This document shows positions 1,403 to 32,143 of a stretch of DNA of 37,824 bases, in pieces. Within the stretch, counting starts at the first letter, position 1, and every line of letters begins with the position of its first letter. Source of the stretch: an uncultured Gammaproteobacteria bacterium (GTDB taxonomy: Bacteria > Patescibacteriota > Patescibacteriia > 2-01-FULL-39-33). Position numbers and translations under genes: made by a program. Below the pieces are notes generated by a model. It was not told the origin of the DNA. It saw nothing but the letters and a program-made list of their open reading frames with translations, and did not search any database. The stretch lies in contig CAZSPT010000001.1 in the NCBI GenBank assembly GCA_964608895.1, positions 16,626 through 54,449 of the forward strand. Direction: 5' to 3'.

Positions 1403-1413
1403 GAAAATTTCTA

Positions 1414-4233: not shown

Positions 4234-4382
4234 CTTCCCTTATAAAATTATCAAATTATAAATTATCAAAATTAAGCCTAAATCACAGTTAAGTCAGGCT
4301 TAACTTCCGAATATTTCTTAAAATTATTATAACACAAAAAACAATCCTGAAACAAGCCCGTAAAAATCAAAAAAACCGATTT

Positions 4383-5507
4383 TTAAAAAAAAGATTGATA
4401 AACCGTCAGAGTTTTCCGGGCGGTTTTTTCCCAGGAATATTTTTGGGAATTGGCCAGCCCCTTGCCGGCCAGTTCCCGGCAAAGCTCCGGCTGGGACAAA
4501 AGCTTGATTAGCTCGGCGGCGATCGCTTCAGAATCTTCGGGATTAAAATAATGAGCGGTTGAACCGAGAATCTCCGGAAGCGATCCTCGGTCAGAAGCAG
4601 CGACCGGCACTCCCCTGGCTTGAGCCTCCAAGGCCGGCAGGCCAAAACCCTCAAAAAGACTCGGAAAAACATAAATTTTTGCCCGGCGGAAAAAGCAATT
4701 AATCTGAAAATCGGAAAGATAACCCGGAAAAAACACTTTTCCTTGAAGCTCGGGAAAATTCTCAATCAGAAACCGTTTTAGTCGCTGATAAAAATAACTG
4801 TCTTTTCCGGCTAAAACCAGCCGCTGGTCGGGAAATTTATCAACTACTTTTTTGAAAGCGGCGACAAGATTTTCCAAATTTTTATGGGGATAAGCCGAAC
4901 CGAGATAAAAAAGATAGCCGGGCTTCAAGCCGTATTCTTCCTCTGTCAGCCGGCAGTTTCCGGCGGCTCGGCCGAGCTCAACCCCTTCATAGACAACAAC
5001 GACTTTTTCCGAAGGAATTTTCAACAGCCGAACAATATCTTTTTTAGTGGCTTCAGAAACAGCGATAATTTTTTTGGCCCGGCGAGCGGCCCGGGAAATA
5101 ACCAGTCGGTAGCCGAAAAGCTTCAGCCGGTAGCTGAACAGCCGCCGAGTGGTCGCCCGGCTGCTCGGAAACCGAGAAATAATCAAATCATGAATAGTTA
5201 CCAAAAATTTTCCCCAATAGACAAGCGGAACATTAAAATGCCCGAAATGGACCAAATCCAAACGATATTTCCAAAGAACTGCCGGAAAAATAAGCTGCTC
5301 CTGCCAGCTGTACGGTTTAAAATCAGCGAGAATTTTCCGAAAATTCGGCTGATTCGGCCGGTAGTCGTTGAAATTTTCCTTGGTTAGAAAAATCAAATAA
5401 TCGTTTTTTTGGTCAAGCTGTTCAAGCCGGCTAATTAACTTTTCCAAATAGCGGCCCAAACCGGCGTTTTTTGTCCCGTAAAGCCGGGCGTCAATTCCGA
5501 TTTTCAT
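4383..5507 (-). CDS. Glycosyltransferase family 4
   Basis: 374 aa with the GT-B/GT4 C-terminal motif [25 protein letters not shown]. The N-terminus MKIGIDAR is shared with the other GT4 paralogues. Confidence 0.9.
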
Positions 5508-6621
5508 ATTTTTTAAAAATTTCTAAAAACTGTTTGGCGGCCGCCGGCCAACTAAACCGCCGAGCCTGGATGATTCCAGCTTCAGCCAGCCGCCGGCGGA
5601 GCCGGTCGTCTTTTAACAGGGCTTCGGCGGCTTTGGTAATTTCTCCAAGATTATCGGGATTGACCAGCAAGCCGGCTTGGCCGACAACTTCCGGCTGGGA
5701 AGAATTTGCTCCGGCGATTACCGGACAGCCCGAGGCCAGCGCTTCCAGCAACGGTAGACCGAATCCTTCATAAAACGAGGGGTAAATTAAAAATTCCGCC
5801 AGATTATAAAGAGCCGGCTTGTCTTCTTCCTGAAAATAACCGGTTAAAGTAATTCTTGAATCTTTCTCAGCTTCGGCCAGAAGCGGACCTGTTTTCCAGC
5901 CCCGAGGGCCGGCCAGAACCAGCCGACAATCGTCTGGAGCGAGTCGCTGAAACGCCCTGATAACACCGGCAATGTTTTTTCGGGGCTCCAAAGTGCCGAG
6001 ATAAAGGATAAACTTCGGAGGGAGACGATATTTTTTCCGAACCGCCTCCAGTTGAGTATCAGATTTTGGAATAACCCGGAACCGCTGATGGTCAACCGCC
6101 GGATAAATCACTCTTATCTTATTTGGATCAACCCCTAAAACCGCCTCCAAATCTTTAGCGGTATTTTTGGAATCAGCGACCACTAAATCAGCTTGGAAAA
6201 CTATTTTTTTTAGAATAATCAACTTGTGCCAAAGCCGCATTTTCCAAGAAAAAAATTCCGGAAAAAGGATAAATGATAAATCATGAACAGCAAGAATTTT
6301 TCGGCAATTATCCGACCAACTAACAAAATGGAGGTTTGGAGCGAAAAAAAGGTCGGCTGAACCGGCCAAACGATCAAGTTTGGGAAAATTCCCAAAATTC
6401 AAAGCAAGGTTAAAGAGTTTGTTCGGCCAATGGTAGCCGAGATAGCGGGCGTTTTTTCGCTCAAACGGCGGCAAAGAAATTTTTTTTGAAGAATTATAAA
6501 AAAGAAAATATTGATTGTCGCGGTCAAGGTTCAATAAAGCCTCCAAAAGACCGGCAGTATAGCGGGAGACTCCTGAATATTGAGCGGTCATCAGGCAACG
6601 GACATCAACGGCTATTTTCAT
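5491..6621 (-). CDS. Glycosyltransferase family 4
   Basis: 376 aa with [25 protein letters not shown] and N-terminus MKIAVDVR. It overlaps the downstream GT4 by 17 nt. Confidence 0.9.
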
Positions 6622-7711
6622 TTTGAAAAATCTTATTGACTAAATTGATTATTTGGTTTTTGAAAATTTCCGGCCGAAAATTTTCAGCCCAGCGCTTTAT
6701 TTCTTCGGAAGAATAATCCTCCGGCCTAAATCTGATAACTTTGTCAGCAATCTCCTCCCACCACTGATTTTCAAAAAATTCTCCAGTTCGGCCGGGGATA
6801 ACAGTCTCCAAAGCGCCGCCGGCCTGATAAGCGATCACCGGCCGTCCGGCGGCCATCGCCTCAATAGCAGTAATACCGAAATCCTCTTCTTGAGGATGAA
6901 GATAAGCGATTGCTTCGGCGTAAAGCCGACACTTCTCTTCCTCGGAAACTTTTCCAAGAAATTCAATTTTGGAACTGTTGGCGGCCAACTTTTTCAACCG
7001 AGCCATTTCCGGACCGACTCCAAAAACTTTCAAAGGAATCCCCAACCGGCCAAAAGCCTGAATAACCAAATCAATTTTTTTGTAGGGAACAAGCCGAGAA
7101 CCGGCCAAATAATATTTCTTCGGTGCTGAAGAAATCCAAAAATTATCAACATCAACCGGCGGATAAACAACCTCGCTTGGACGGTGATAATATTTCTTAA
7201 TCCGCTCCCGGACGGTCGCCGAACTAGTGGCAAAAAAATCAACCCGATCGGCCGCCAAACGATCCCAACCCCGAAGCCGATGAAGAGTTAAAGGAAGAAA
7301 AATCTTAAAAATCGGATTAACTTTCAGCTCTTTGATATAAGAATGAGTGTCAATCCAAAGAAATCGAGTCGGGGTGTAGCAATAGCAAAGATGACGACTG
7401 CCGGGCTTGGTAATAACACCCTTGGCAAAGGCTGAAGCGCTTGAAATAACCAAATCATAATCAGTTAAATCATAACTCTCAATCGCCGCCGGCATAATTG
7501 GCAACCACCATTGATAACAGCGAACCCCCAAAGGAAACTTCTGAAGAAAAGAAGTCCGGATATCCTGGGAATAAAAAAACCTGTTGGTGTTTTTTGGATC
7601 AAAAACTAAAGTAAAAATCGGAGCTTCTGGAAAAATTTCCTTCAAGGCTTTTAAAACCCGTTCCGCCCCGCCGTCCTGAACCAAATGGTCATGAATTAAA
7701 GCAACCTTCAT
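6605..7711 (-). CDS. Glycosyltransferase family 4
   Basis: 368 aa with LHPQEEDFGITAIEAMAAGRPVIAY and N-terminus MKVALIHDHLVQDGGAERV. It overlaps the downstream GT4 by 17 nt and is the first gene after a 245-bp AT-rich spacer. Confidence 0.9.
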   Translation of the reverse strand: MKVALIHDHLVQDGGAERVLKALKEIFPEAPIFTLVFDPKNTNRFFYSQDIRTSFLQKFPLGVRCYQWWLPIMPAAIESYDLTDYDLVISSASAFAKGVITKPGSRHLCYCYTPTRFLWIDTHSYIKELKVNPIFKIFLPLTLHRLRGWDRLAADRVDFFATSSATVRERIKKYYHRPSEVVYPPVDVDNFWISSAPKKYYLAGSRLVPYKKIDLVIQAFGRLGIPLKVFGVGPEMARLKKLAANSSKIEFLGKVSEEEKCRLYAEAIAYLHPQEEDFGITAIEAMAAGRPVIAYQAGGALETVIPGRTGEFFENQWWEEIADKVIRFRPEDYSSEEIKRWAENFRPEIFKNQIINLVNKIFQNENSR

Positions 7712-7879
7712 AACAAATTAAACTAAAACTGTTGTTAATATAATACCATAAAGGCAAAAAGACAAAAATAATTTATTTGATAAAAAAACAAAAAACACTA
7801 ATTATTGACTAATTTTACAAAAATAAACAAAAATTCACCGCTAAAAAAACAATAACAATATAATAAACTTTTTTTAACC

Positions 7880-7908
7880 TTGACAAAAATAAAATTATGT
7901 GCTATATT
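7880..7908 (+). promoter_or_regulatory. Sigma-70-type promoter with extended -10 for the 41-codon gene
   Basis: TTGACA (7880..7885), a 17-nt spacer ending in TGc, then TATATT (7903..7908). It lies about 50 nt upstream of the ATG at 7957. Confidence 0.7.
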
Positions 7909-7919
7909 TATCTGATGTG

Positions 7920-7931
7920 CTGAAAATTCAG
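7920..7931. promoter_or_regulatory. Inverted repeat CTGAA-aa-TTCAG just downstream of the -10
   Basis: ctgaaaattcag has 5-bp arms. It sits at the predicted 5' end of the small-gene transcript. A related palindrome is at 8142..8157. Confidence 0.3.
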
Positions 7932-7956
7932 GGTAGAAAGTAAAAGGAGAGGAGCT

Positions 7957-8082
7957 ATGGAAAAAGATGACATGGAGAACATTATGGCCATTTTGGTGGC
8001 CTGCATCGGGGAATTAAAGAAAAAATTCCCCGACGAGGTGGATGAAATCCTGGCAAAGGCCAGGGAAATTGCGGAAAAATAA
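7957..8082 (+). CDS. Small acidic helical protein, 41 aa, no recognisable family
   Basis: ATG preceded by aaaaggagaggagct (a strong SD). Translation: MEKDDMENIMAILVACIGELKKKFPDEVDEILAKAREIAEK. It has its own consensus promoter and an intrinsic terminator. It is below the length shown in the ORF track. Confidence 0.6.
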   Translation: MEKDDMENIMAILVACIGELKKKFPDEVDEILAKAREIAEK

Positions 8083-8090
8083 TGGTTCCC

Positions 8091-8127
8091 AAAGGGCAGT
8101 TTAGAAATAACTGCCCTTTTTTATTTT
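8091..8127 (+). terminator. Rho-independent terminator of the small gene
   Basis: A 10-bp stem (aaagggcagt / actgcccttt) with a 9-nt loop, followed by ttttttatttt. Confidence 0.8.
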
Positions 8128-8141
8128 GGAAAATACAGAAA

Positions 8142-8157
8142 TTCTGAAATTTCAGAA
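8142..8157. promoter_or_regulatory. Perfect 16-bp palindrome TTCTGAAATTTCAGAA
   Basis: Perfect dyad in the convergent intergenic spacer. The core CTGAA..TTCAG resembles the dyad at 7920..7931. Confidence 0.3.
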
Positions 8158-8188
8158 AATAAATAAGCCGCTCTTTTGAGAACGGCTC
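8158..8188 (-). terminator. Probable intrinsic terminator for the minus-strand PGT-lipoprotein unit
   Basis: On the minus strand: agccgttctc-aaaa-gag(bulge)cggct, followed by ttatttatttt. The stem is imperfect. Confidence 0.5.
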
Positions 8189-8283
8189 TAAAAAATCTCT
8201 GGCTACTTTAGTGAGAAAATAATTCGGTCCAATTCTTCGCCAGTATTGAAATCATAGGAGCGAATTGAAAAAAATCCCGACAT

Positions 8284-8766
8284 TTAGATATAGTACCTCA
8301 CCGCCACAGCGTTAAAACCTCTCCCAAACCTTATTTTGGTAGTCGCCAGCAGCAACGAGGCCTCTCCTCCTTCCAACTTGTAAAGCCTAATCAACAGTTT
8401 GTCGGTTTTGGCTGGAACAGGCTGGACAAAGAAAAATTCTTTGCCTATTTGAAACTCCTGGCCGGCCTGGAAAACCTCTTCTCCAAAGCTGATCAGGCCG
8501 TCCAGATTAACATCTTCAAATTTCTGGCAAACAAAACAATTCGGTCCCGATCCGGCCGACTGAAAGCCCTTGAGCGTAATTTTATCCAATCTCGGCTCCC
8601 GAAGGGAGACAAAGAGATAGGAAGAATCGCGATTATCCCTTTTCTTGCTAAAAAAGGAATCTTCCGGTCGATAGGATTCGCTAAAAACACTTTCAGTTTG
8701 ACAGCCGGCAGTCAAAATCCCCGCTAAAACGGCTATTTTTAAAAAGAACAACCTTCCTGTCATCAT
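8284..8766 (-). CDS. Lipoprotein, unknown function
   Basis: 160 aa. Signal peptide with a lipobox (MMTGRLFFLKIAVLAGILTAG-C). A strong SD (agaaaggaggataa) sits in front of the ATGATG start. Confidence 0.75.
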   Translation of the reverse strand: MMTGRLFFLKIAVLAGILTAGCQTESVFSESYRPEDSFFSKKRDNRDSSYLFVSLREPRLDKITLKGFQSAGSGPNCFVCQKFEDVNLDGLISFGEEVFQAGQEFQIGKEFFFVQPVPAKTDKLLIRLYKLEGGEASLLLATTKIRFGRGFNAVAVRYYI

Positions 8767-8842
8767 TTATCCTCCTTTCTCAACAACCTTCAAAAAAACT
8801 CGTTATTACCTTATCAAACCCTAACTTAAAAAACAAATTTTT

Positions 8843-24533: not shown

Positions 24534-25661
24534 TTAATCAACCAAACCAGCCGCCAGCCGCCAGACTCCTTCGGCGGTTTTCCGCCAAGAAAATTTTTCA
24601 GCCCGGACCAAACCTTGAGAAACCTTTTCCTGATAAAACCGCTGGTCAACGAGAAGCTTTCTAACCGCCTCGGATATTTCCCGAGGATTTTCCGGGTCGG
24701 CGAAAACCGCCGCCGCTCCGGCAACTTCCTGATGGACCGGCCGCTGAGAAGCGACTACCGGCGTTCCCGAGCCAAATGCCTGAATAATTGGCAGACCAAA
24801 ACCCTCATAGCGGGTCAGAAACAAAAAAATTTCAGCTTGGCTGAAAAAAACCGGCACAACCGCTTGATTAAGATAACCGGGAAAAATTATTCTCTTCCCG
24901 ACCGGACCGAGTCCACCGGCCAGCCGCTTGGCTTCGGCGGCGACGTTTCCCGAACCTCCGGCTAAAACCAACTGAAGCTCGGAAAAATCTCCGGCTAGCA
25001 AAGAGAAGGTTCTGATTAAGTTAAGGATATTCTTTTTTTTCTCCAGCCGGCCGAGATAGAACAGAAACGGTTGGCGAACTCGCAGCCGCTTAAGAATATC
25101 CGGCCGGTCTCGACCGGCCGCCGGCTGAAACTTCCGCCGGTCATAGCCGGGGAAAACTACTTTGATTTTTTCTTCAGGCACTCCGGCCAAATCAATAATT
25201 TCCCGCCGGGAAAATTCAGAAATTGTCAAGACAATATCGGCTCGGCACTTGATTCTCTTTAAAGTCAAATCATGATACCAGCGGGTAATCGGACGATAAA
25301 GCTCGGGAAACCGCCGCCAGCCAACATCGTGAACGGCGACAATTATTTTAACCTTCCGAGGAAAAGGTAAGAAAGGAATAGTGTGAGCCGGAACCAATAA
25401 AACGTCCGGCGGACTAACAATCAGCTCAAACCAAAGCCGGAGCTGGGTCCAAAGATATTTCGGCGGCCAACCAAGCCGCTTTTCCCGCCAATGGCCAGGC
25501 AACTTTCCCAGAGCTCCTTGAAGTTTGCGGCCGCTGTATAAAATTGGCCGGTCAACTTCGGGAATGATTTTCTTCAGCTCCTCAATCAGCCGATAAGAAT
25601 ACCATTCGGTTCCGGTTTTTAATTCCCGATTAGCCCGGGAAGCGTCAATCCCGATTTTCAT
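24534..25661 (-). CDS. Glycosyltransferase family 4
   Basis: 375 aa with TRYEGFGLPIIQAFGSGTPVVAS. The N-terminus MKIGIDASR is paralogous to the GT4 trio at 4383..7711. Confidence 0.9.
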   Translation of the reverse strand: MKIGIDASRANRELKTGTEWYSYRLIEELKKIIPEVDRPILYSGRKLQGALGKLPGHWREKRLGWPPKYLWTQLRLWFELIVSPPDVLLVPAHTIPFLPFPRKVKIIVAVHDVGWRRFPELYRPITRWYHDLTLKRIKCRADIVLTISEFSRREIIDLAGVPEEKIKVVFPGYDRRKFQPAAGRDRPDILKRLRVRQPFLFYLGRLEKKKNILNLIRTFSLLAGDFSELQLVLAGGSGNVAAEAKRLAGGLGPVGKRIIFPGYLNQAVVPVFFSQAEIFLFLTRYEGFGLPIIQAFGSGTPVVASQRPVHQEVAGAAAVFADPENPREISEAVRKLLVDQRFYQEKVSQGLVRAEKFSWRKTAEGVWRLAAGLVD

Positions 25662-25701
25662 ATTAAAAATTATTTCCGCCGATTAACCGCTAAAACGCCG
25701 G

Positions 25702-26712
25702 TTATTTAGTCGCCAAAATACTCCGCTTGTAATTTTCCAAATTATCCAAAGCAATGCCCGTTCCTTTGGCAACGCAAAAAAGCGGATCATCGGCGACATA
25801 AGCGACCACTCCGGTCGCTTGAGTAATCAGTTTATCAATATTCCGAAGCAGGCTTGAACCGCCGGACATCACCACTCCCTGATCAATAACATCAGCCGAA
25901 AGCTCCGGCGGGGTTTTTTGAAGAACATTTTTAACCGCAGCGGTTATTCCTTCCAATTCTTTAGAAATCGCCTCGGTAACGTCGTCAGAAGAAACAGTAA
26001 TTGTTTTTGGCAGACCGCTGACAATATCCCGGCCCCGAATATCTATAGTCATTTTTTCTTGAAGATAAAGAGCCGAACCAATATTTATCTTAACGTCTTC
26101 GGCGGTCCGTTCGCCAATCGCCAAACCATACTTTTTGCGAATATGCTCAGAGATTGAATAATCAAACTTACTCCCGCCAATTCTGATGGAAGTTGAAGCG
26201 ACAATTCCGCCGAGGGAAATAACCGCGACTTCGGCGGTACCGCCGCCGATATCAATAATCATATGGCCGGCGGCCGAGCCAATCGGAATATTTGCTCCAA
26301 TGGCGGCGACAACCGGCTCTTTGATAATATAAGCGGCTTTTGCTCCGGCGGCGATTGTCGCGTCAATGACCGCCCGGCGCTCAGTAGAAGTGATTCCGGC
26401 CGGAACCGCAACCATCACTTCCGGCCGGAACAGCCGAACTCCACCAAGAGCCTTGTTTACAAAATAACGAAGCATCGCCTCGGTTGTTTTATAGTCGGCA
26501 ATCACTCCGTCTTTTAAGGGTTTTCGGGCGACAATGGTATCCGGAGTCCGGCCAAGCATCTCCTTGGCCTCCATGCCAACGGCAATGATTTTTTTGTCAA
26601 TATCGGAAATCGCCACCACCGAAGGCTCGTTGATGACGATTCCTTTCTTGGGAACATGAACTAAAATATTGGTTGTTCCCAAATCAATTCCGATTTTTTT
26701 TATCAAAAACAT
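25702..26712 (-). CDS. mreB: MreB, canonical rod-shape actin homologue (second paralogue)
   Basis: 336 aa with the full canonical motif set: IGIDLGTTN; KDGVIADY; IKEPVVAAIGA; IIDIGGGTAEVAVISLGG; SGGSSLLRNID; DPLFCVAKG. Confidence 0.92.
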   Translation of the reverse strand: MFLIKKIGIDLGTTNILVHVPKKGIVINEPSVVAISDIDKKIIAVGMEAKEMLGRTPDTIVARKPLKDGVIADYKTTEAMLRYFVNKALGGVRLFRPEVMVAVPAGITSTERRAVIDATIAAGAKAAYIIKEPVVAAIGANIPIGSAAGHMIIDIGGGTAEVAVISLGGIVASTSIRIGGSKFDYSISEHIRKKYGLAIGERTAEDVKINIGSALYLQEKMTIDIRGRDIVSGLPKTITVSSDDVTEAISKELEGITAAVKNVLQKTPPELSADVIDQGVVMSGGSSLLRNIDKLITQATGVVAYVADDPLFCVAKGTGIALDNLENYKRSILATK

Positions 26713-26761
26713 AATTTGCCGGGTTTAAAAACTATTTCGGAAAAACCTCCAAAAACAGCGG

Positions 26762-28732
26762 CTAAAAATTGACTAAATAACAACGGTCTTCTTTAAGGTC
26801 GGACTGCCAACCAAGAATTTTATTTTCTGCCGTAATCGGCGGCCGGTAGCTGGAATAGGATTTTACCCGCTGGTTGAATTTTAAGACTATCTTGAGATTA
26901 TGTCCAGCGGAACCCGGCTGTTTTTGAACACAAAAATTATACACCCCCCGGCGGTACTGTTCGGCAATTCTTTCCGGCAACCGATATTCCAAAACAACCG
27001 TCTTTTCCCGACCCGGCTTAACGGTAAAGAAAAACCCAAGATATTTCTTTCCAAACTCTTCTTTAATATCAACTTCTTCAGGAATTCCCAGCTCAACCAA
27101 ATGGTCGTTCTGACGGAGACCCGCTTTCAAAAACCAACTTTCTTTAGGAACATAAACCCGAAGATAATTGCGGTATTCAGTGATTAAATCTTTCAAATAC
27201 TCGCCTTGATGAAGATAATTTATCTCCAGCCGGGCCGTCAGCCGACCGCTGTCATCGGCGGTTAACTGATAACTGAAAGACTTCTCCATTACTGAATTGG
27301 TTTTTAAGGAGGCAAAGTTGCTGTCAACCGCCAAAAAATAATCACCAACAGCCGTCTGAAGCTCGCCCGACCAATTTTTCTGACTGAAATAACGCTGAAG
27401 CTCGGGAGCGGTCAAATAAACAAGAATCTGCTTCTGGTCAATATTATTTTTGAAAGCCAGCCAAAACGAAAGAATTTTTTCCGGCGGCAGATGATAAACT
27501 TTTTTCATTAATTTTTCGGTCAGCTCTCCGATAATCGCCTTTCGCTGATGAACCGGAATTCCATAATCAGCATAATCAAACTCAACAAATTGCTCCAAAT
27601 CCATCGCAAAATTATCAGCCTGAAAAACAACTCCCCGGGCTTCCAGCGGTCCGACTACTTCCAAAAGATTGGCGATAAAATCGGGAGTCAAAGCAATTAC
27701 TCCGTCAAAATCAATTTTAGTCAGTCCGGCCGCTTCCCGCTCTTGATTAAAAAACCAGAGGATTTTTTCGGCCGCCGTCGGCCAATCCGGTGACCAATTG
27801 GCGTCCCGAAGATACCAGTTTCGCTGGTTGTTGTAGCGCCAAAACGGTTCAGGAGCGGTTATCGCCAGCTTACCCTCGGCCAAACGGTCAAGGTTGTAAA
27901 CATCATTAGTTTTAATTTTAACAATCTTACCATTTCTAACGGTGATAATCCCATAGCTGCCAATAAAACCGCCGGTCGGCCGAAGCTCCATATTATTCTG
28001 AAAAATCAAAAGATATTTTTTTTCTCCGCCAACCGCTCCGAGCTCCGGCAGATTGGCGAGAATTGGGATGGCGGTTTCGGTTCCGGTAATCGTTTCATCC
28101 AAAAACTGATAAAGAAAAACCAGCTTAGACTGAAAAATTCCGGAAAAATCGCTTGTTTTAATTTCAATAAAATCCTCTTTTGCCCGGTTGATTTCTCCGG
28201 AAACCTTTTGAAAAGATTCTTTTTCTTCTTGAAGAGCTTTTAAAAACTCCAGCCGATGCTCGGGACTTTCAAAACTCAAGGCCATTTCCTTTGCCTGAAA
28301 ATGCCCCTGAAGCCCTTCAATAATCAAAAAAACTTCCTGATAACCGGTAACAATGTCTTGAGAAACAAGCAACAGCTGGTCAAGGCCGGTTAAATTCCGC
28401 TTAATTGGAGGAAGATAGCCGAGCGGACCAAGCCAATCCAACCGGCGCCTGATTTTACCAAGCTGGCCGTTCAACCCTTCAAGCTCTTGCCGAGCGGTCG
28501 GCCAGTCTCCCCGGCGGCCGGCTTCAACGACTATTTCGGCCTTCCCGGTCATTTTAAAAAAACCGGCCGCTATTCCCAAACCGGCAAAAACCGCCGGCAG
28601 AATAATCACCGCCAAAAAAATTATCCCGGCGGCCAAAATTATCCTGCCAACCGGCCGACCGGGTTTTTTTAACCGACAACAGACTAAGAAGCGCTCAAAC
28701 AACCTTTTTAAAGGAAGTAACTTTGAAATCAT
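26762..28732 (-). CDS. DUF4012 domain-containing membrane protein
   Basis: 656 aa. N-terminal TM (IILAAGIIFLAVIILPAVFAGLGIAAGFF), a helical linker and the DUF4012 core (YLLIFQNNMELRPTGGFIGSYGIITV; LRDANWSPDWPTAA; FDGVIALTPDFI). The track start overlaps the upstream GT2 by 38 nt. Confidence 0.88.
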   Translation of the reverse strand: MISKLLPLKRLFERFLVCCRLKKPGRPVGRIILAAGIIFLAVIILPAVFAGLGIAAGFFKMTGKAEIVVEAGRRGDWPTARQELEGLNGQLGKIRRRLDWLGPLGYLPPIKRNLTGLDQLLLVSQDIVTGYQEVFLIIEGLQGHFQAKEMALSFESPEHRLEFLKALQEEKESFQKVSGEINRAKEDFIEIKTSDFSGIFQSKLVFLYQFLDETITGTETAIPILANLPELGAVGGEKKYLLIFQNNMELRPTGGFIGSYGIITVRNGKIVKIKTNDVYNLDRLAEGKLAITAPEPFWRYNNQRNWYLRDANWSPDWPTAAEKILWFFNQEREAAGLTKIDFDGVIALTPDFIANLLEVVGPLEARGVVFQADNFAMDLEQFVEFDYADYGIPVHQRKAIIGELTEKLMKKVYHLPPEKILSFWLAFKNNIDQKQILVYLTAPELQRYFSQKNWSGELQTAVGDYFLAVDSNFASLKTNSVMEKSFSYQLTADDSGRLTARLEINYLHQGEYLKDLITEYRNYLRVYVPKESWFLKAGLRQNDHLVELGIPEEVDIKEEFGKKYLGFFFTVKPGREKTVVLEYRLPERIAEQYRRGVYNFCVQKQPGSAGHNLKIVLKFNQRVKSYSSYRPPITAENKILGWQSDLKEDRCYLVNF

Positions 28733-29507
28733 TTTTTTTGGAATATTTTTTAAGATATTTTAACCAATCAGAAATATGAATCCAGAAAATTTTGGAAAAA
28801 ATTCCGCTCTGAGCCGATTGCCGCTGGTGATAGTGGACAATTTCAGCGTCAACAAAGTAATAGACCTGGCAACCAAGCCGCCAAAATTTTTGGCACCAAG
28901 CAATATCTCCAAAATATAAAAACAAATCTTCGTCCATTGAACCGGCCTCTCTAATGACGCTCCGGCGAACCATCGCGAACGCTCCGAGAATCCAATCAAC
29001 TTTTCTGGTTGATTGATGGTCAAAATCTTTCATTAAATAACGGTCAAGCTTTCGCTTAGCGAACGGCAGCCGGCCGAGAAAAGTCCGGCGGTAGATTGGA
29101 ACCAACCGATCCGGAAACCGCAGACAGGAAGATTGAATCGTTCCGTCGGGATTTTTCAGCCGGGGGCCAACCAGAGCGACTTCCGGCCGACTTTCCATAA
29201 ACCAATAAAGCTTGTCAAAAGAATTGTCCAAAACGGCAATATCAGTGTTAAGAATCACTAAATACTTCCCTTGGGAATTCTTAATGCCCAAATTGTTTCC
29301 TTTGTGATGGCCGAGATTTTTTGAAGAAGCAATCAGTTTAACTTCAGGAAACTGTTCTTTAACCAACTCAACCGAACCATCCCGGGAATCATTGTCAACA
29401 ACAATCACTTCAAAATCAACCGAAGGAGGATAAAGGTAAATTCCTTTAAGGCATTGTTTAAGCAATCCCCGGGTTTTATAATTGTTGATAATAATTGAAA
29501 GCTCCAT
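28695..29507 (-). CDS. Glycosyltransferase family 2
   Basis: 270 aa GT-A fold (LSIIINNYKT...VIVVDNDSRDGS...LILNTDI-type DxD region ILNTDIAV). Confidence 0.88.
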   Translation of the reverse strand: MELSIIINNYKTRGLLKQCLKGIYLYPPSVDFEVIVVDNDSRDGSVELVKEQFPEVKLIASSKNLGHHKGNNLGIKNSQGKYLVILNTDIAVLDNSFDKLYWFMESRPEVALVGPRLKNPDGTIQSSCLRFPDRLVPIYRRTFLGRLPFAKRKLDRYLMKDFDHQSTRKVDWILGAFAMVRRSVIREAGSMDEDLFLYFGDIAWCQKFWRLGCQVYYFVDAEIVHYHQRQSAQSGIFSKIFWIHISDWLKYLKKYSKKNDFKVTSFKKVV

Positions 29508-29510
29508 AAA

Positions 29511-30551
29511 TTAGGAAAACCATTTTTCAATTTCTTCCGGCTTAATCCGAGATTTGGCGGAAATCACTCGGCGTTTCTCAAGCATCCGGCCGGCCAGCCG
29601 AGCCCAGTCAGCGGCGGCTTTAAAATTTCCAGGCTCAAAAATCAAGGAATAGCCAAATTTTTTCAGTTCATAACCGAAAATCGGGAAAAACGATTTTAGA
29701 ATATTAGCCGAAAATTCATTTTTAAGCAAGAGAAAAAAATGATTTCGATAAGAAAAATATCGGGCTAAAGCCGACTGTTTTTTCCGAGCCGCCCGAAGCT
29801 CCCGAAATTTTCCGCCGGCCGGAGCGCCGACCGCCCGGCGATGATAAGCAACCGCCTCAGACACCAAAAGCGACCGCCAGCCGAGCCGCCGGACCCGCCA
29901 GGCCAAATCAACATCTTCTTTATAAATAAAAAAATCTTCGTCAAAGTATTCTCCGGCCGGCTGGAAATCGGTTTTTACCAAGCAATCCTCAAGAGCGGTT
30001 CGGCGATAAAGCGCCAAAGCGCCCGAAGGGCCAAAAATCTCTTGGGTTTTTAAAAAATTCCGTCCGCCGTCCCGGCCGGCTCCAAGCTCTACTACCCGCC
30101 GGCTGGCCAAAGGCCGGAGACCGCAGGAGTCAATAATTTCAGTTTTTTTAAATTCATCAAAATCCCCGGCCGCCAGCTCAAGTTTCAAAAGTTTGCCGCT
30201 AAAACCAGCAAACCCGGCAAATTCCGGTGATTCGGCCCGGCTGACCATTTTTTCCAGCCAGTCAGAATTTAAAATAATGTCAGGATTGCAAAAAACAGTG
30301 TAACGGGATTTCAAAAGCCTCAAACCTTGATTATTCGCCTTAGCAAAACCAAAATTTTTCTTATTTTGAAAAACAGTTACTTCAGGATAATTTTTTTTAA
30401 CAAATTCAACTGTTCCGTCCTGGGAATTATTGTCAATGATTAAAACCTGAAAATCCTTGTAAGTCTGATTAAAAATAGACTTAAGGCATTCTGGCAGACA
30501 GCGCCGGTTATTATAGCTGACAATTTGAAAAATTACTTTGGGATAATCCAT
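29511..30551 (-). CDS. Glycosyltransferase family 2
   Basis: 346 aa GT-A fold (FQIVSYNNRRCLPECLKSIFNQTY; VLIIDNNSQDGT; FCNPDIIL; FIYKEDVDLAWR). Confidence 0.88.
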   Translation of the reverse strand: MDYPKVIFQIVSYNNRRCLPECLKSIFNQTYKDFQVLIIDNNSQDGTVEFVKKNYPEVTVFQNKKNFGFAKANNQGLRLLKSRYTVFCNPDIILNSDWLEKMVSRAESPEFAGFAGFSGKLLKLELAAGDFDEFKKTEIIDSCGLRPLASRRVVELGAGRDGGRNFLKTQEIFGPSGALALYRRTALEDCLVKTDFQPAGEYFDEDFFIYKEDVDLAWRVRRLGWRSLLVSEAVAYHRRAVGAPAGGKFRELRAARKKQSALARYFSYRNHFFLLLKNEFSANILKSFFPIFGYELKKFGYSLIFEPGNFKAAADWARLAGRMLEKRRVISAKSRIKPEEIEKWFS

Positions 30552-30554
30552 AAA

Positions 30555-32057
30555 TCAGCGATTAAGCCGTTTCTCGGTCACCCAGAAGCCGAGCCGCCAG
30601 CGGCCGCCGAGCATTAATCTGGTTTGAGCGTCAATTGCCGGAATTGAACCAAAAATTATCATAGTGACCGGGAAAACCGCCCATTGAGCAATCATAATTA
30701 AATAATTATACCAATAATATCCGGCTGGACGGTTTGGGAGCATAAAAGTATAAAAAATCGCGTTGACAACCAGTCCGAACATTCCGATTATCATCAATCT
30801 TTCCAAAGTATAAGGGGCATTTTGAAAAAAAGCGGTCGCTTTTATCTGATCAGAAGCCAACCAAAGCGGCAGCCGGCCAACGACCAGAATCAAAACCGGA
30901 GCAGTCGCCCAGGAATACATTCCTTCAAACTGATTCCAAAGATAACCAAGCCGCTTTTTCAAGGGAATCCGAGAATTTTTCCAGCGGCCGAAAAAATGAT
31001 TCCACATCCAGGGGAAATGTTCCACCCCCCAAGCCCAGCGCCTCATCTGCTTATATTGATTTTTGAAACTTTTCCAAAAAGAGCCGACTTGCACGGTGTC
31101 CATTGACAGAGTGATAAACATCGGAACCACTTGATAATCTCCATCATAGCGGTCAATTCCTTGAAGGCAAATTCGGGAATCTTCAGTGACAATCATCTTG
31201 TCGTGGAAGCCGACGTCAACAAGCATCTGAAAACTCATACTGTGGGAAGAAAAGGTAAGCAGCCGTTCCGGCCGAGACAAGTCGGTTAAAAGCCAAAAAG
31301 TAGTCGCCGAAGCAACGACTCGAATAATTGGGTTGGACTGCCAAATGTTATTATTGTATAAAATCAACGGTTGATAACTCGCTCGAGTCGGCTTAGAATT
31401 GGTTAAATATTTATAAGTCAGGTAAGAAAAATACTGGGGATCGGGCAGAGTTTCAATATCAAAGCAGGAAACGATTATTTTGTCATAAGGAATTTTCCAT
31501 TGATCAACCAGCTGCTTGAGATTTTTTTCCATATGATGGACATTGGAACCTTTTCCGGGAAGCTCGCCCGGCGCCGGAGGGTGGACGGTAATCACTAATT
31601 TAAAAAATTTATCACCATATTTTTCCTCAATTCTCCGGGCAATCTCCCGAAAATTTTTCTCGTCGCGCTGTTCCCCTCCGAGAGCGACAATCATCCGGTC
31701 TTTAGGATAATCGGTTTTTAAGAGCTTCTCAAAAGAACGCTCAATTATTTGATAAGATTCTTGATAGGTCGGATAAGTGACAATGTGGTAATACTGACGA
31801 TAATCTTGTTTAAAATTTTCAAGTTTTTCCAACCAGTTAACTTTTAAAGTTCGGCGGTAGCGAATCCAGGAAAAAATCAGCCAGACCATCATATAAAAAA
31901 TCCGGACAATCCAATAAACGGCGAAAATAATAATAAAATAAATCGCCCAAAGCGGCCGAATCAGAGATAAAACAACGACAATTCCAAAAGTCACCCAAAC
32001 CAGCAGGGCTGGAAAAATTTCAGCCGGACGATTTTTTTCCTGATTAGCATTAGTCAT
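30555..32057 (-). CDS. Membrane-embedded processive family-2 glycan synthase (cellulose/chitin-synthase-like)
   Basis: 500 aa with 2 N-terminal and several C-terminal TM helices flanking a GT2 core. The core has PGKGSN, SCFDIET (DxD-type), VTEDSRI (TED motif) and QMRRWAWG (QxxRW motif). Confidence 0.85.
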   Translation of the reverse strand: MTNANQEKNRPAEIFPALLVWVTFGIVVVLSLIRPLWAIYFIIIFAVYWIVRIFYMMVWLIFSWIRYRRTLKVNWLEKLENFKQDYRQYYHIVTYPTYQESYQIIERSFEKLLKTDYPKDRMIVALGGEQRDEKNFREIARRIEEKYGDKFFKLVITVHPPAPGELPGKGSNVHHMEKNLKQLVDQWKIPYDKIIVSCFDIETLPDPQYFSYLTYKYLTNSKPTRASYQPLILYNNNIWQSNPIIRVVASATTFWLLTDLSRPERLLTFSSHSMSFQMLVDVGFHDKMIVTEDSRICLQGIDRYDGDYQVVPMFITLSMDTVQVGSFWKSFKNQYKQMRRWAWGVEHFPWMWNHFFGRWKNSRIPLKKRLGYLWNQFEGMYSWATAPVLILVVGRLPLWLASDQIKATAFFQNAPYTLERLMIIGMFGLVVNAIFYTFMLPNRPAGYYWYNYLIMIAQWAVFPVTMIIFGSIPAIDAQTRLMLGGRWRLGFWVTEKRLNR

Positions 32058-32096: not shown

Positions 32097-32100
32097 ATTT

Positions 32101-32128
32101 AAAAATATCCGGTTAACCGGATATTTTT
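32101..32128. terminator. Intrinsic terminator after gpmI (perfect palindrome)
   Basis: aaaaatatccggtt/aaccggatattttt is a fully self-complementary 28-mer with A/T-run flanks. It lies 16 nt after the gpmI stop. Confidence 0.75.
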
Positions 32129-32143
32129 AGCAGTTAAACCTAC

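What the first reader, a model, noticed from the sequence alone, without database searches (positions are those of the whole stretch)
24534..32057. Synthase-type glycan cluster with a DUF4012 protein and an embedded MreB: candidate uncharacterised envelope-polymer assembly module
Six consecutive minus-strand genes have gaps of 49 nt or less. They are a multi-TM processive GT2 synthase (TED and QxxRW motifs), two soluble GT2s, a 656-aa membrane-anchored DUF4012 protein, a canonical MreB and a GT4. Nowhere in the 37.8 kb do I see a Wzx flippase, Wzy polymerase, Wzz-type co-polymerase, ABC exporter or LCP ligase. To my knowledge DUF4012 has no experimentally assigned function. Both copies here share a TM helix, a long helical segment and a large extracytoplasmic domain. 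That layout would suit a co-polymerase, export or wall-attachment component. An actin-like filament gene sitting between DUF4012 and a GT suggests spatially guided deposition of the polymer.
Basis: partly seen in the sequence, partly recalled or inferred. Interest (0 to 1): 0.7.

Follow-up and report, generated by a model that had tools for sequence, protein, structure and literature searches.

The report
Conserved glycan gene cluster with embedded MreB
In a large group of ultra-small Patescibacteria (CPR), a very highly conserved second copy of the actin-like protein MreB sits inside a sugar-polymer gene cluster next to a widespread membrane protein of unknown function (DUF4012), which points to an undescribed, possibly cytoskeleton-organised, envelope-glycan machine.

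Summary
Six co-directional genes at 24534-32057 encode:
- a multi-TM GT2 with TED, QxxRW and FxVTxK motifs, whose model best matches hyaluronan and cellulose synthases;
- two soluble GT2s;
- a single-TM DUF4012 protein;
- a genuine MreB;
- a GT4.

The window is Patescibacteria. The MreB adjacency is not unique to this contig. Of 79 DUF4012-seeded species loci, 59-64 have this MreB paralog (MreB2) directly downstream. Of 60 MreB2-seeded metagenome loci, 47 have DUF4012 directly upstream. At least 15 loci keep DUF4012-MreB2-GT4 between unrelated flanks.

MreB2 orthologs are 75-98% identical to one another but only 39-44% identical to the mreCD-linked MreB1.

DUF4012 lies in glycan clusters in CPR, Streptomyces, Rhodococcus and Bifidobacterium. 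Outside CPR it has no MreB beside it. Its confident model has a helical bundle, an α/β core with no PDB match among those listed, and a β-sandwich.

Some lineages keep synthase-GT2-GT2-MreB2 without DUF4012. So DUF4012 is not obligatory there.

The module is best read as a conserved envelope-glycan module. MreB-guided deposition and the biochemical role of DUF4012 remain inferences. I found no literature on the association.

The parts
30555..32057 (-). Syn500. A 500-aa membrane-embedded GT2 of the processive synthase type (BcsA/HAS-like). It has 2 N-terminal and 3-4 C-terminal TM helices around a cytoplasmic GT-A domain.
   Evidence: It has no Pfam hit at or below 1e-3. Its motifs are DIE200, TED291, QMRRW337 and FWVTEK491, all conserved in 43 orthologs. 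The AF2 model has pLDDT 83.1. Foldseek best matches are CvHAS (TM 0.58, E 4e-9), BcsA, XlHAS1 and chitin synthases. Orthologs are 58-74% identical and many carry PF13632.
29511..30551 (-). GT2_346, a soluble family-2 glycosyltransferase.
   Evidence: Glycos_transf_2 at 1.6e-28. No hydrophobic segment. It is conserved upstream of DUF4012 in many loci.
28695..29507 (-). GT2_270, a soluble family-2 glycosyltransferase with weak rhamnosyltransferase-like similarity. Its 3' end overlaps the DUF4012 start by 38 nt.
   Evidence: Glycos_transf_2 at 2.2e-20. TIGR01556 at 1.2e-15, below its cutoff. Similar overlaps occur in orthologous loci L001, L002 and L006.
26762..28732 (-). DUF4012 protein, 656 aa. 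It has a short basic cytoplasmic tail, one TM helix (about 31-49), a helical bundle (about 60-231), an α/β core (about 237-460) and a C-terminal β-sandwich (about 464-656).
   Evidence: PF13196 at 4.9e-29. The AF2 model has pLDDT 89.3 and pTM 0.86. There is one hydrophobic segment. Foldseek against PDB matches only about 220-255 aligned columns, to β-sandwich-containing proteins, with TMq at most 0.21. 25 columns are invariant in 72 sequences.
25702..26712 (-). MreB2. A bona fide MreB paralog of the Gram-positive/Thermotoga type, distinct from the mreCD-linked MreB1.
   Evidence: MreB_Mbl at 2.6e-129, and it passes the NCBIfam MreB cutoffs. It is 43% identical to MreB1. Orthologs are 75-98% identical to one another but 39-44% identical to MreB1. 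It scores 379 bits to Geobacillus MreB, and its GGVRLFRP aligns to TmMreB GGMNLFKP.
24534..25661 (-). GT4_x, a soluble GT-B family-4 glycosyltransferase. It is the third member of the recurrent DUF4012-MreB2-GT4 triad.
   Evidence: Glycos_transf_1 at 1.6e-26. A GT4 lies within 1.5 kb downstream of MreB2 in 40 of 58 MreB2-seeded loci. It is present in the triads found in unrelated contexts.
32100..32129 (-). Perfect 13-bp hairpin followed by a T-rich run, in the 86-nt gap between iPGM and Syn500. It is a candidate terminator of the upstream glycolytic genes and the 5' boundary of the module.
   Evidence: This is a pattern match only and its function is untested.
17736..18776 (-). MreB1, the paralog in the mreB-mreC-mreD-PBP2 operon. 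It is included as a comparator and is not part of the module.
   Evidence: Pfam and NCBIfam hits. It is followed by MreC, MreD and a PBP2-type transpeptidase.
1414..10243 (-). Second DUF4012-containing glycan cluster. It comprises a PGT (8843-10243), a hypothetical gene (8284-8766), three GT4s (4383-7711) and a 939-aa DUF4012 (1414-4233).
   Evidence: Bac_transf 8.3e-63, three GT4s, DUF4012 4.9e-26; EPS_sugtrans, 384 bits.

Best explanation
The six genes form a conserved Patescibacteria envelope-glycan module.

Shown:
- Syn500 is a BcsA/HAS-type membrane-embedded GT2 with the catalytic and UDP-contacting motifs of processive β-glycan synthases.
- It is flanked by three soluble GTs.
- DUF4012 is a single-TM membrane protein. 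Its conserved ectodomain (helical bundle, α/β core with no listed PDB match, β-sandwich) carries many invariant polar residues.
- MreB2 is a genuine MreB under very strong constraint and is a separate orthologous group from the mreCD-linked MreB1.
- DUF4012-MreB2-GT4 stays together in about 80% of sampled loci, including loci where both flanks differ.

Inferred mechanism:
- The cytoplasmic GT2s and the GT4 prime or decorate the glycan.
- Syn500 polymerises a UDP-sugar-derived β-linked glycan and threads it through the membrane.
- The DUF4012 ectodomain acts on the emerging polymer outside the cell by binding, trimming, remodelling or anchoring it. A membrane-anchored GH-A glycosidase appears in the same gene network.
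- MreB2 filaments on the inner face of the membrane organise where this happens. MreB2 carries the hydrophobic LF loop used by Thermotoga MreB.
On this reading the cell has one MreB for the peptidoglycan elongasome (MreB1-MreCD-PBP2) and one for a secondary glycan.
For: - Gene content, motifs and fold. The FxVTxK and QxxRW roles are described in PMC10592267 and PMC10374906.
- Conservation of order: L001-L008. MreB2 is next to DUF4012 in 59 of 79 DUF4012-seeded loci by a strict criterion, or 64 of 79 from the listing. DUF4012 is immediately upstream in 47 of 60 MreB2-seeded loci.
- 15 non-redundant triads have unrelated flanks on both sides.
- Gaps between DUF4012 and MreB2 are mostly -11 to +30 nt.
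- MreB2 is a distinct, more conserved paralog group.
- DUF4012 associates with glycan genes beyond CPR (PMC5412050, PMC6744442).
- A membrane-anchored GH-A glycosidase follows MreB2 in Syn-GT2-GT2-MreB2 loci and lies next to DUF4012 in L075 and L037.
- DUF4012 has 25 invariant columns at 33% mean column identity, including N246, E249, R251, D282, D310, N312, E384, K398, D464, N472 and K477.
Against: - The downstream housekeeping genes (holB, BNR, frr, rseP, proS, mreB1CD) are syntenic too, so much of the conserved order could be inherited synteny.
- DUF4012 and MreB2 are separable: Syn-GT2-GT2-MreB2 occurs without DUF4012, and DUF4012 occurs without MreB2.
- Outside CPR, DUF4012 has no MreB partner.
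- The cytoplasmic tail of DUF4012 is short and only weakly conserved, which gives little support for direct MreB binding.
- No transcript, interaction or product data exist.
- Syn500's FxVTxK lies in the C-terminal tail rather than after IF3, and the tail's orientation is unresolved.
- The DUF4012-seeded loci are the best 80 of 593 relatives, so the statistics describe this ortholog subgroup and not the whole family.
Confidence: 0.5

Rival explanations
1. Synteny without mechanism. MreB2 is simply the main housekeeping MreB for peptidoglycan elongation. It sits in an ancient, slowly rearranging string of envelope and housekeeping genes. The GTs and DUF4012 make a secondary glycan independently of it.
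For: - The whole block through holB, frr, rseP, proS and mreB1CD is syntenic across the same genomes.
- MreB2 is the more canonical and more conserved of the two MreBs.
- MreB2 keeps its position when DUF4012 or GT4_x is lost.
- In L007 and L008 the triad lies just downstream of murG-murC-murB.
Against: - At least 15 loci keep DUF4012-MreB2-GT4 together with both flanks replaced.
- DUF4012-MreB2 gaps are mostly -11 to +30 nt.
- A separate MreB1 is already linked to mreCD-PBP2 in the same genomes.
- 95 of 102 non-redundant MreB2 loci have a DUF4012, GT2 or GT4 gene as an immediate neighbour. That set includes the DUF4012-seeded loci, so the figure is biased upward.
Confidence: 0.28
2. The DUF4012-MreB2-GT4 triad is a peptidoglycan-related accessory unit. 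DUF4012 would act as a bitopic membrane adaptor for MreB2 (RodZ- or MreC-like in role), and GT4_x would act on a lipid-linked wall precursor. The synthase and GT2s would be only lineage-specific neighbours.
For: - The triad is the unit that moves, while Syn500 is present upstream in only 25 of 65 loci.
- The L007 and L008 context is murG-murC-murB.
- DUF4012 has an N-in single-TM topology with a short basic tail that carries a semi-conserved motif in close orthologs.
Against: - DUF4012 sits in Wzy-type EPS clusters with no MreB in CPR and Actinobacteria, and in Bifidobacterium (PMC5412050).
- The tail is not conserved family-wide.
- There is no sequence or fold similarity to RodZ or MreC: Pfam finds only DUF4012, and neither appears among the listed Foldseek matches.
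Confidence: 0.1
3. The module does not make a free envelope polymer. It makes a glycolipid or lipoglycan, or glycosylates surface proteins such as pilins or S-layer proteins. Syn500 would act as a short-chain or lipid-directed GT2.
For: - GT4_x's best sub-threshold NCBIfam similarities include lipid-directed GT4s (GlcN-PG synthase, IagA/BgsA, a processive DAG glucosyltransferase).
- Three non-processive GTs accompany the synthase.
- L001 has type IV pilin genes upstream.
Against: - Syn500 has the full processive-synthase motif set, including TED, QxxRW and FxVTxK, and a HAS/BcsA-like channel fold.
- A membrane-anchored GH-A glycosidase in the same gene network fits a polymer better.
- The pilin genes are only a variable flank.
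Confidence: 0.1

Closest known systems
Bacterial cellulose synthase BcsA-BcsB (synthase-dependent secretion) and related β-glucan synthases (BgsA, RiGT2)
   Same: - A membrane-embedded GT2 with D/DxD-like, TED, QxxRW and FxVTxK motifs (PMC10592267, PMC10374906).
- BcsA is among the top Foldseek matches.
- A single-TM partner with a large ectodomain is encoded nearby.
- A glycoside hydrolase is present in related loci.
   Different: - No PilZ domain, and no BcsB, BcsZ or BcsC homolog.
- Syn500 is 500 aa, the size of HAS.
- FxVTxK is in the C-terminal tail.
- DUF4012 is N-terminally anchored, and BcsB is not among its listed fold matches.
- Three extra soluble GTs and an MreB gene lie inside the cluster.
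Class I hyaluronan synthase (Chlorella virus HAS, Xenopus HAS1) and chitin synthases
   Same: Best global structural match: TM 0.57-0.58 over about 495 aligned columns, with similar size and TM architecture.
   Different: - Sequence identity is 12-14%.
- Syn500 has FxVTxK, not the WGTR/KG loop motif of HAS and chitin synthases (PMC10592267).
- It has TED rather than the (G)DDR/EDR-type motif (my own recollection for the latter).
MreB-associated wall teichoic acid / LCP machinery of Bacillus subtilis (MreB, Mbl, MreBH with TagTUV and Tag enzymes)
   Same: The concept is shared: MreB paralogs organising synthesis or attachment of a secondary wall glycopolymer in a monoderm, with a single-TM extracytoplasmic enzyme as partner.
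   Different: - In Bacillus the genes are not operonic with mreB.
- No LCP, TagO or TagF-type domains occur here.
- DUF4012 shows no LCP Pfam hit and no LCP structure among its listed fold matches.
Actinobacterial and Bifidobacterium Wzy-dependent EPS/CPS clusters containing DUF4012
   Same: The same Pfam family (PF13196) lies next to priming GT, Wzz/BY-kinase, Wzy_C and GT4 genes (PMC5412050). The window's second cluster (PGT, three GT4s, DUF4012) resembles this layout.
   Different: - No MreB is adjacent in those clusters.
- Identity to the window protein is 23-25%.
- The pathway type there is Wzy-dependent rather than synthase-type.
RodZ / MreC (membrane partners of MreB in the elongasome)
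   Same: A bitopic membrane protein encoded directly next to an mreB gene.
   Different: - No HTH or MreC β-barrel domain.
- The cytoplasmic tail is only about 20-45 residues long and is poorly conserved.
- DUF4012 occurs widely without MreB.

Membership tests
MreB/Mbl (PF06723; NCBIfam TIGR00904 / NF010539) | Profile score above the curated cutoff over the full length | tested here: met
   431 bits against a 27-bit cutoff. TIGR00904 432.6 against 365.75, and NF010539 444.8 against 293.
MreB/Mbl (PF06723; NCBIfam TIGR00904 / NF010539) | Actin-fold nucleotide-binding motifs (DLGT, DIGGGT, GGxxLL) and close similarity to solved MreB structures | tested here: met
   IGIDLGTTN, IIDIGGGTAEV and MSGGSSLLRNID are present. 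The protein aligns essentially end to end (two 2-residue gaps) to Geobacillus MreB 7zpt at 379 bits and to TmMreB 1jce at 332 bits.
MreB/Mbl (PF06723; NCBIfam TIGR00904 / NF010539) | Membrane-binding element (hydrophobic loop or N-terminal amphipathic helix) | tested here: met
   GGVRLFRP aligns with TmMreB GGMNLFKP. That L93/F94 of TmMreB form the membrane-insertion loop is my own knowledge (Salje et al. 2011).
MreB/Mbl (PF06723; NCBIfam TIGR00904 / NF010539) | Polymerisation into antiparallel double filaments; role in cell shape | not testable with these tools
   Needs biochemistry or imaging.
Processive membrane-embedded GT2 synthases (BcsA/CesA/HAS/chitin synthase type) | Catalytic motifs: DxD-type, TED (catalytic base), Q(Q/R)xRW | tested here: met
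   DIE200, TED291 and QMRRW337. D200, E292, D293, Q337, R340 and W341 are invariant in 43 orthologs.
Processive membrane-embedded GT2 synthases (BcsA/CesA/HAS/chitin synthase type) | Gating-loop motif FxVTxK (β-glucan synthases) in the loop after IF3 | tested here: inconclusive
   FWVTEK491-496 is present and conserved. It lies in the C-terminal tail after the last TM helix, and its orientation is not resolved (pLDDT below 50).
Processive membrane-embedded GT2 synthases (BcsA/CesA/HAS/chitin synthase type) | GT-A domain packed on a TM channel (fold) | tested here: met
   Foldseek matches: CvHAS at TM 0.57-0.58 and E 4e-9, plus BcsA, XlHAS1, Chs1 and Chs2.
Processive membrane-embedded GT2 synthases (BcsA/CesA/HAS/chitin synthase type) | Curated sequence-profile membership (Pfam GT2 families) | tested here: not met
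   The window protein's best hit is PF13641 at 19 bits, below the 27-bit cutoff, and it has no NCBIfam hit. Many orthologs carry a precomputed PF13632 hit, marked weak in the four context loci where it is listed.
Processive membrane-embedded GT2 synthases (BcsA/CesA/HAS/chitin synthase type) | Processive polymerisation coupled to translocation | not testable with these tools
   Needs an in vitro or heterologous assay.
DUF4012 (PF13196) | Profile score above the gathering threshold | tested here: met
   102.1 bits against a 28-bit cutoff for residues 236-377. All 72 aligned relatives match.
Bcs cellulose secretion system | BcsB partner, PilZ/c-di-GMP control, BcsZ (GH8) endoglucanase | tested here: not met
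   No such domains in any of the 29 main ORFs. BcsB is absent from the listed DUF4012 fold matches.
Polysaccharide co-polymerase (Wzz / PCP, PF02706) | Wzz domain flanked by two TM helices, with a long periplasmic helical hairpin | tested here: not met
   DUF4012 has one hydrophobic segment and no Wzz hit even at E up to 0.5. No Wzz structure is among the listed fold matches. Streptomyces clusters carry a separate Wzz protein beside DUF4012.
LCP (LytR-CpsA-Psr) glycopolymer ligases | LCP catalytic domain (PF03816) | tested here: not met
   No Pfam hit. No LCP structure among the 50 listed Foldseek PDB matches. Ten further matches with E at or below 0.001 were not displayed.
Wzx/Wzy-dependent pathway | Flippase and polymerase genes in the cluster | tested here: not met
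   None among the window's 29 main ORFs. Wzy_C is present next to DUF4012 in other CPR loci, for example L033.

The most novel reading that the evidence does not exclude
Patescibacteria of this group run two actin-based envelope machines. MreB1-MreCD-PBP2 serves peptidoglycan. A dedicated MreB2, together with GT4_x and the DUF4012 ectoprotein, serves a secondary β-glycan made by a minimal BcsA/HAS-like synthase. DUF4012 would be a new class of extracytoplasmic glycan-processing or anchoring enzyme, shared with Wzy-type pathways of Gram-positive bacteria.
Probability: 0.25. Interest if true: 0.85.

Novelty: new variant of a known kind. Interest (0 to 1): 0.62.

Why it matters
CPR/Patescibacteria envelopes are almost uncharacterised. 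Here a roughly 1-Mb-class streamlined lineage keeps two MreBs, and the more conserved one is embedded in a glycosyltransferase cluster in over a hundred sampled lineages. That gives a concrete, testable link between the bacterial actin cytoskeleton and a non-peptidoglycan glycan.

It also gives DUF4012 a defined genomic context in three pathway types. The family has 14,299 clusters at 50% identity with E at or below 1e-3 and spans CPR, Actinobacteria and Firmicutes. Its confident model has a core domain with no solved-structure analogue among the listed matches. That makes it a good target for structural and biochemical work.

Syn500 is a compact, highly conserved synthase carrying BcsA-type motifs on a HAS-sized scaffold.

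Tried and rejected
- Sequence searches of the PDB found nothing meaningful. The DUF4012 profile hit only helical-bundle noise at E of 0.005 or above. Syn500 as a single sequence or a profile had no hit below E=0.4.
- Foldseek of the whole DUF4012 model matched only about 220-255 aligned columns, to β-sandwich-containing proteins (ERAP1/2 and APN, an OST subunit, ITIH1, 4g2a, 3kd4). I assign these matches to the C-terminal β-sandwich from their length and identity; residue ranges were not reported.
- A relaxed Pfam scan of all 72 DUF4012 relatives found no second recurrent family.
- The window's own DUF4012 is not indexed for contig look-up, so I could not retrieve the source genome.
- I tested whether a small gene just upstream of DUF4012 is a conserved partner. 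The Streptomyces one is a secreted protein ending in a TM segment and basic tail, and the CPR one is a cytoplasmic HVO_A0114-like protein. They are unrelated, so I rejected the idea.
- I considered non-orthologous displacement of DUF4012 by the membrane-anchored GH-A glycosidase. It is weakened because the two are adjacent in L075 and L037.
- The promoter scan was uninformative.
- The left end of the window (1-1413) has no ORF of 100 aa or more, no tRNA and no Rfam hit.
- Literature searches for PF13196/IPR025101 and for MreB with CPR or glycosyltransferase terms found nothing on this association.

Full report
**What is in the window.**
- The 37.8-kb window is a Patescibacteria (CPR) contig. 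Almost all large ORFs are on the minus strand with short gaps.
- Every close homolog of its proteins comes from Patescibacteria MAGs, mostly Falkow-, Buchanan-, Uhr-, Kerfeld-, Komeili- and Kuenenbacteria.
- Pfam and NCBIfam scans of the 29 main ORFs give the following order, 5'→3' on the minus strand:
  - PGK, enolase and two tandem iPGM genes;
  - the six genes of the finding;
  - holB, a BNR/sortilin-like β-propeller, frr, rseP, a small hypothetical gene and proS;
  - mreB-mreC-mreD-PBP2, then greA;
  - a plus-strand gyrB/parE-type gene and an RNase P RNA;
  - a second glycan cluster: PGT, a hypothetical gene, three GT4s and a 939-aa DUF4012 protein.

**Checking the observation.**
- The six ORFs, their coordinates and their gaps (40, 49, -38, 3 and 3 nt) are as described.
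- GT4, MreB, DUF4012 and the two soluble GT2s all pass Pfam thresholds comfortably.
- The 500-aa 'synthase' does not. Its best hit is Glyco_tranf_2_3 at E=0.0016 and 19 bits, and it has no NCBIfam hit.
TED (291) and QMRRW (337) are present, along with DIE (200) and FWVTEK (491). These residues are invariant or at least 90% conserved in 43 orthologs.
- FxVTxK is the gating-loop motif of BcsA, CesA and related β-glucan synthases. HAS and chitin synthases use WGTR/KG instead (PMC10592267 and PMC10374906).
- An AF2 model (pLDDT 83, pTM 0.85) best matches Chlorella virus hyaluronan synthase (TM 0.57-0.58, E 4e-9). BcsA, Xenopus HAS1 and chitin synthases follow.
- So 'synthase-type GT2' is supported by motifs and fold, though not by curated sequence profiles.
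- The motif sits in the basic C-terminal tail rather than after IF3, which is unusual and unresolved.
- No Wzx, Wzy, Wzz, ABC-exporter or LCP domain was found in the window.
- One caveat: the six-gene boundary is arbitrary at its 3' end, where holB follows after 31 nt. At the 5' end an 86-nt gap contains a perfect 13-bp hairpin plus a T-run.

**The two MreBs.**
- MreB2 (25702-26712) and the mreCD-linked MreB1 (17736-18776) are 43% identical.
- Across related loci, MreB2 orthologs are 75-98% identical to each other and MreB1 orthologs are 68-77% identical. The two groups are only 39-44% identical to one another.
- MreB2 is the closer of the two to solved Gram-positive and Thermotoga MreBs: 379 against 301 bits to Geobacillus MreB.
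- MreB2 has an LF pair aligned with the LF of the Thermotoga MreB loop GGMNLFKP. That this loop inserts into the membrane is my own knowledge of the literature.
- MreB1 instead starts MLKKILGKLSRDLG. From memory, this resembles the N-terminal amphipathic helix of E. coli MreB.
- Both are intact MreBs. MreB2 is the most conserved protein in the block.

**Is the adjacency conserved?**
- Six look-ups of DUF4012 homologs on long contigs gave two patterns.
  - At 37-45% DUF4012 identity, the same order is kept: Syn500-GT2-GT2-DUF4012-MreB2-(insert)-GT4-holB….
  - At 33-34% identity, the context is entirely different. murG-murC-murB and MacAB-type ABC transporter genes lie upstream. An S8 peptidase, an epimerase, a small GT2, DUF2304 and two GT4s lie downstream. 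DUF4012-MreB2-GT4 is still intact there.
- A scan of GTDB species representatives returned 80 loci, which I annotated by BLASTP against the window's proteins.
  - Of 79 non-redundant DUF4012-seeded loci (these plus the look-up loci L001-L008) with at least 1.1 kb of downstream sequence, 59 have MreB2 within 400 nt. The count is 64 if longer gaps are allowed.
  - Gaps are mostly -11 to +30 nt.
- In the reverse test, 80 metagenome loci were seeded with MreB2.
  - 47 of 60 with enough upstream sequence have DUF4012 immediately upstream.
  - 40 of 58 have a GT4 within 1.5 kb downstream.
- Among non-redundant DUF4012-MreB2 loci with long flanks, 15 have neither GT2 or Syn500 upstream nor holB downstream, yet they keep the triad.

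**Limits on that conclusion.**
- The downstream housekeeping genes are also syntenic in most of these genomes, so part of the conservation is inherited gene order.
- The components are separable:
  - Syn500-GT2-GT2-DUF4012 followed by dnaE, with no MreB2 (L034, L035, L046, L054);
  - DUF4012-Wzy_C-GT4-GT4 without MreB2 (L033 and similar loci);
  - Syn500-GT2-GT2-MreB2 without DUF4012 (L131, L142, L174, L175);
  - MreB2-GT4-holB preceded by unrelated genes (L145 and similar loci).
- Across these sampled loci MreB2 nearly always has a glycan gene beside it: 95 of 102 non-redundant loci have a DUF4012, GT2 or GT4 neighbour. That figure includes the DUF4012-seeded loci and is biased upward.

**DUF4012 itself.**
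- The family is large: 14,299 clusters at 50% identity with E at or below 1e-3.
- The literature has no functional study. There is one mention in a Bifidobacterium longum EPS cluster and one in a CPR protein-family survey.
- An AF2 model built from 72 sequences is confident (pLDDT 89.3, pTM 0.86). It shows:
  - a short basic N-terminal tail;
  - one TM helix;
  - a bundle of 30-36-residue helices up to about residue 231;
  - an α/β core (about 237-460) that contains the Pfam domain;
  - a C-terminal β-sandwich (about 464-656).
- Foldseek against PDB and BFVD matches only about 220-255 aligned columns, to β-sandwich-containing proteins (ERAP/APN, an OST subunit, ITIH1, 4g2a), with query TM at most 0.21. 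I assign these matches to the C-terminal β-sandwich. No enzyme class, Wzz, LCP or BcsB appears in the listed matches.
- The profile has no PDB relative by sequence and no second Pfam family.
- Twenty-five columns are invariant at 33% mean column identity, many of them polar (N246, E249, R251, D282, D310, N312, E384, K398, D464, N472, K477, Q605, D649). I read this as a specific ligand or active site. That is inference.
- The cytoplasmic tail is 20-45 residues long and basic. It is only semi-conserved: close orthologs share a pattern close to [DE]-[FY]-L-x-x-H-[HN]-L-[IV]-K-[RK]-P. This gives little support for a RodZ-like MreB dock.

**DUF4012 neighbourhoods outside CPR.**
- tblastn against plasmids found annotated DUF4012 genes in Rhodococcus, Streptomyces and Lachnospira.
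  - In the Rhodococcus plasmid, O-antigen-ligase-family, glycosyltransferase and acyltransferase genes lie within about 9 kb.
  - In the Streptomyces plasmid, DUF4012 sits between a BY-kinase and LMW phosphatase on one side and O-antigen-ligase-family, glycosyltransferase and acyltransferase genes on the other.
  - The Lachnospira context is uninformative.
- Two Streptomyces chromosomal loci show DUF4012 next to Wzz/BY-kinase, LMW-PTP, a Bac_transf priming enzyme, Wzy_C, GT4s and nucleotide-sugar enzymes.
- None has an adjacent MreB. The PF06723 hit on the HSP70 protein in L173 is DnaK.
- DUF4012 is thus a general companion of envelope-glycan pathways: synthase-type, Wzy-type and, in L007/L008, a cluster with a small GT2, DUF2304 and GT4 genes. 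The link to MreB2 appears specific to this Patescibacteria group.

**An extra member of the network.**
- In Syn500-GT2-GT2-MreB2 loci that lack DUF4012 and GT4_x, the gene after MreB2 encodes a 337-aa protein. It has an N-terminal TM anchor and a clan GH-A catalytic domain.
- It passes the GH10 and/or GH42 Pfam cutoffs and has ENEP and TELQ motifs.
- Homologs lie immediately upstream of DUF4012 in L075 and L037.
- A membrane-anchored glycanase is a classic accessory of synthase-dependent β-glycan systems. This supports the view that the product is an exported β-linked polymer, and that DUF4012 works in the same extracytoplasmic space.

**Interpretation.**
- The best-supported reading (confidence about 0.5) is a conserved envelope-glycan module.
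  - Cytoplasmic GTs and a BcsA/HAS-like synthase make and export a β-linked glycan.
  - The DUF4012 ectodomain handles it outside the cell.
  - A dedicated, strongly constrained MreB paralog is co-inherited, and probably co-expressed, with the module and may organise it spatially.
- The steps shown are gene identities, motifs, folds, paralog structure and neighbourhood statistics.
- The steps inferred are the polymer type, the DUF4012 activity, co-transcription and any MreB2-machinery contact.
- The main rival (about 0.28) is that MreB2 is simply the housekeeping MreB in an ancient envelope gene string.
- Less likely rivals are a peptidoglycan-related DUF4012-MreB2-GT4 unit and a glycolipid or glycoprotein product.

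**Novelty.** Each part belongs to a known kind: a synthase-dependent glycan cluster, an MreB paralog and a DUF family. I found no description of the conserved embedding of a second MreB in a GT cluster next to DUF4012, nor of the compact synthase with BcsA motifs on a HAS-like scaffold, in the searchable literature. I rate it a new variant of a known kind, interest about 0.6.

Noticed in passing
window 1414-10243 (-): A second glycan cluster: PGT (EPS_sugtrans, 384 bits), a 160-aa hypothetical gene, three tandem GT4s and a 939-aa DUF4012. This DUF4012 has a roughly 280-residue basic cytoplasmic N-terminal extension before its TM helix. The layout resembles the actinobacterial priming-GT plus DUF4012 arrangement.
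   Followed up: partly
window 10324-10721 (+): Bacterial RNase P class A RNA (174.8 bits, E 5.7e-55). It fills the apparent gap between the PGT gene and the gyrB/parE-type gene.
   Followed up: yes
window 32144-33730 and 33837-35414 (-): Two tandem paralogs of cofactor-independent phosphoglycerate mutase (iPGM). The duplication is conserved in related loci (L002, L003, L006, L174, L175). Why a streamlined genome keeps two copies is unexplained.
   Followed up: no
window 1-1413: About 1.4 kb with no ORF of 100 aa or more, no tRNA and no Rfam match. It contains a perfect 21-bp tandem repeat (2.4 copies) at 1164-1213.
   Followed up: partly
L174 14156-15169; L175 13556-14569; L075 6506-7504; L037 about 6792-7685: A membrane-anchored clan GH-A glycoside hydrolase (GH10/GH42-like, with ENEP and TELQ motifs). 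It directly follows MreB2 in synthase loci that lack DUF4012, and it lies directly upstream of DUF4012 in Kuenenbacteria-type loci.
   Followed up: partly
L003, L004, L005 at 5127-6511: A diversity-generating-retroelement-like pair (bAvd accessory protein and RVT_1 reverse transcriptase) lies immediately upstream of the synthase gene in a Falkowbacteria lineage. The DGR target gene was not identified.
   Followed up: no
window 22392-23459 (-), overlapping holB by 4 nt: A BNR/sortilin-Vps10-like β-propeller protein (355 aa). It is conserved directly after holB in nearly all related loci. Its function is unknown, and it may be another envelope or glycan-related member of the block.
   Followed up: no
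window 28642-28732 (DUF4012 residues 1-30) and orthologs in alignment A1: The cytoplasmic tails of close DUF4012 orthologs share a loose motif ([DE]-[FY]-L-x-x-H-[HN]-L-[IV]-K-[RK]-P) ahead of the TM helix. More distant orthologs have ...NF..L......P.VKKRRR.... This is a possible docking peptide, but it is not conserved family-wide.
   Followed up: partly
window 17736-18776 (-): MreB1, the mreCD-linked copy, starts MLKKILGKLSRDLG. From memory this resembles the E. coli MreB N-terminal amphipathic helix, whereas MreB2 lacks it and has the Thermotoga-type LF loop. The two paralogs may use different membrane-binding modes.
   Followed up: partly
L173 9435-10004; L090 7910-8524: In Streptomyces, DUF4012 is preceded by a small secreted protein. 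In L173 the two genes overlap at stop/start; in L090 they are 62 nt apart. The small protein ends in a TM segment plus a basic tail; I read LASTG/LAATG before the TM as a possible sortase-type anchor. It is unrelated to the small HVO_A0114-like gene that precedes DUF4012 in CPR Wzy-type loci.
   Followed up: partly
L009, L010, L013 and many other loci: Many of the MAG records carrying these Patescibacteria-type loci are titled 'uncultured Gammaproteobacteria bacterium'. This looks like a placeholder or mislabel in the public records.
   Followed up: no
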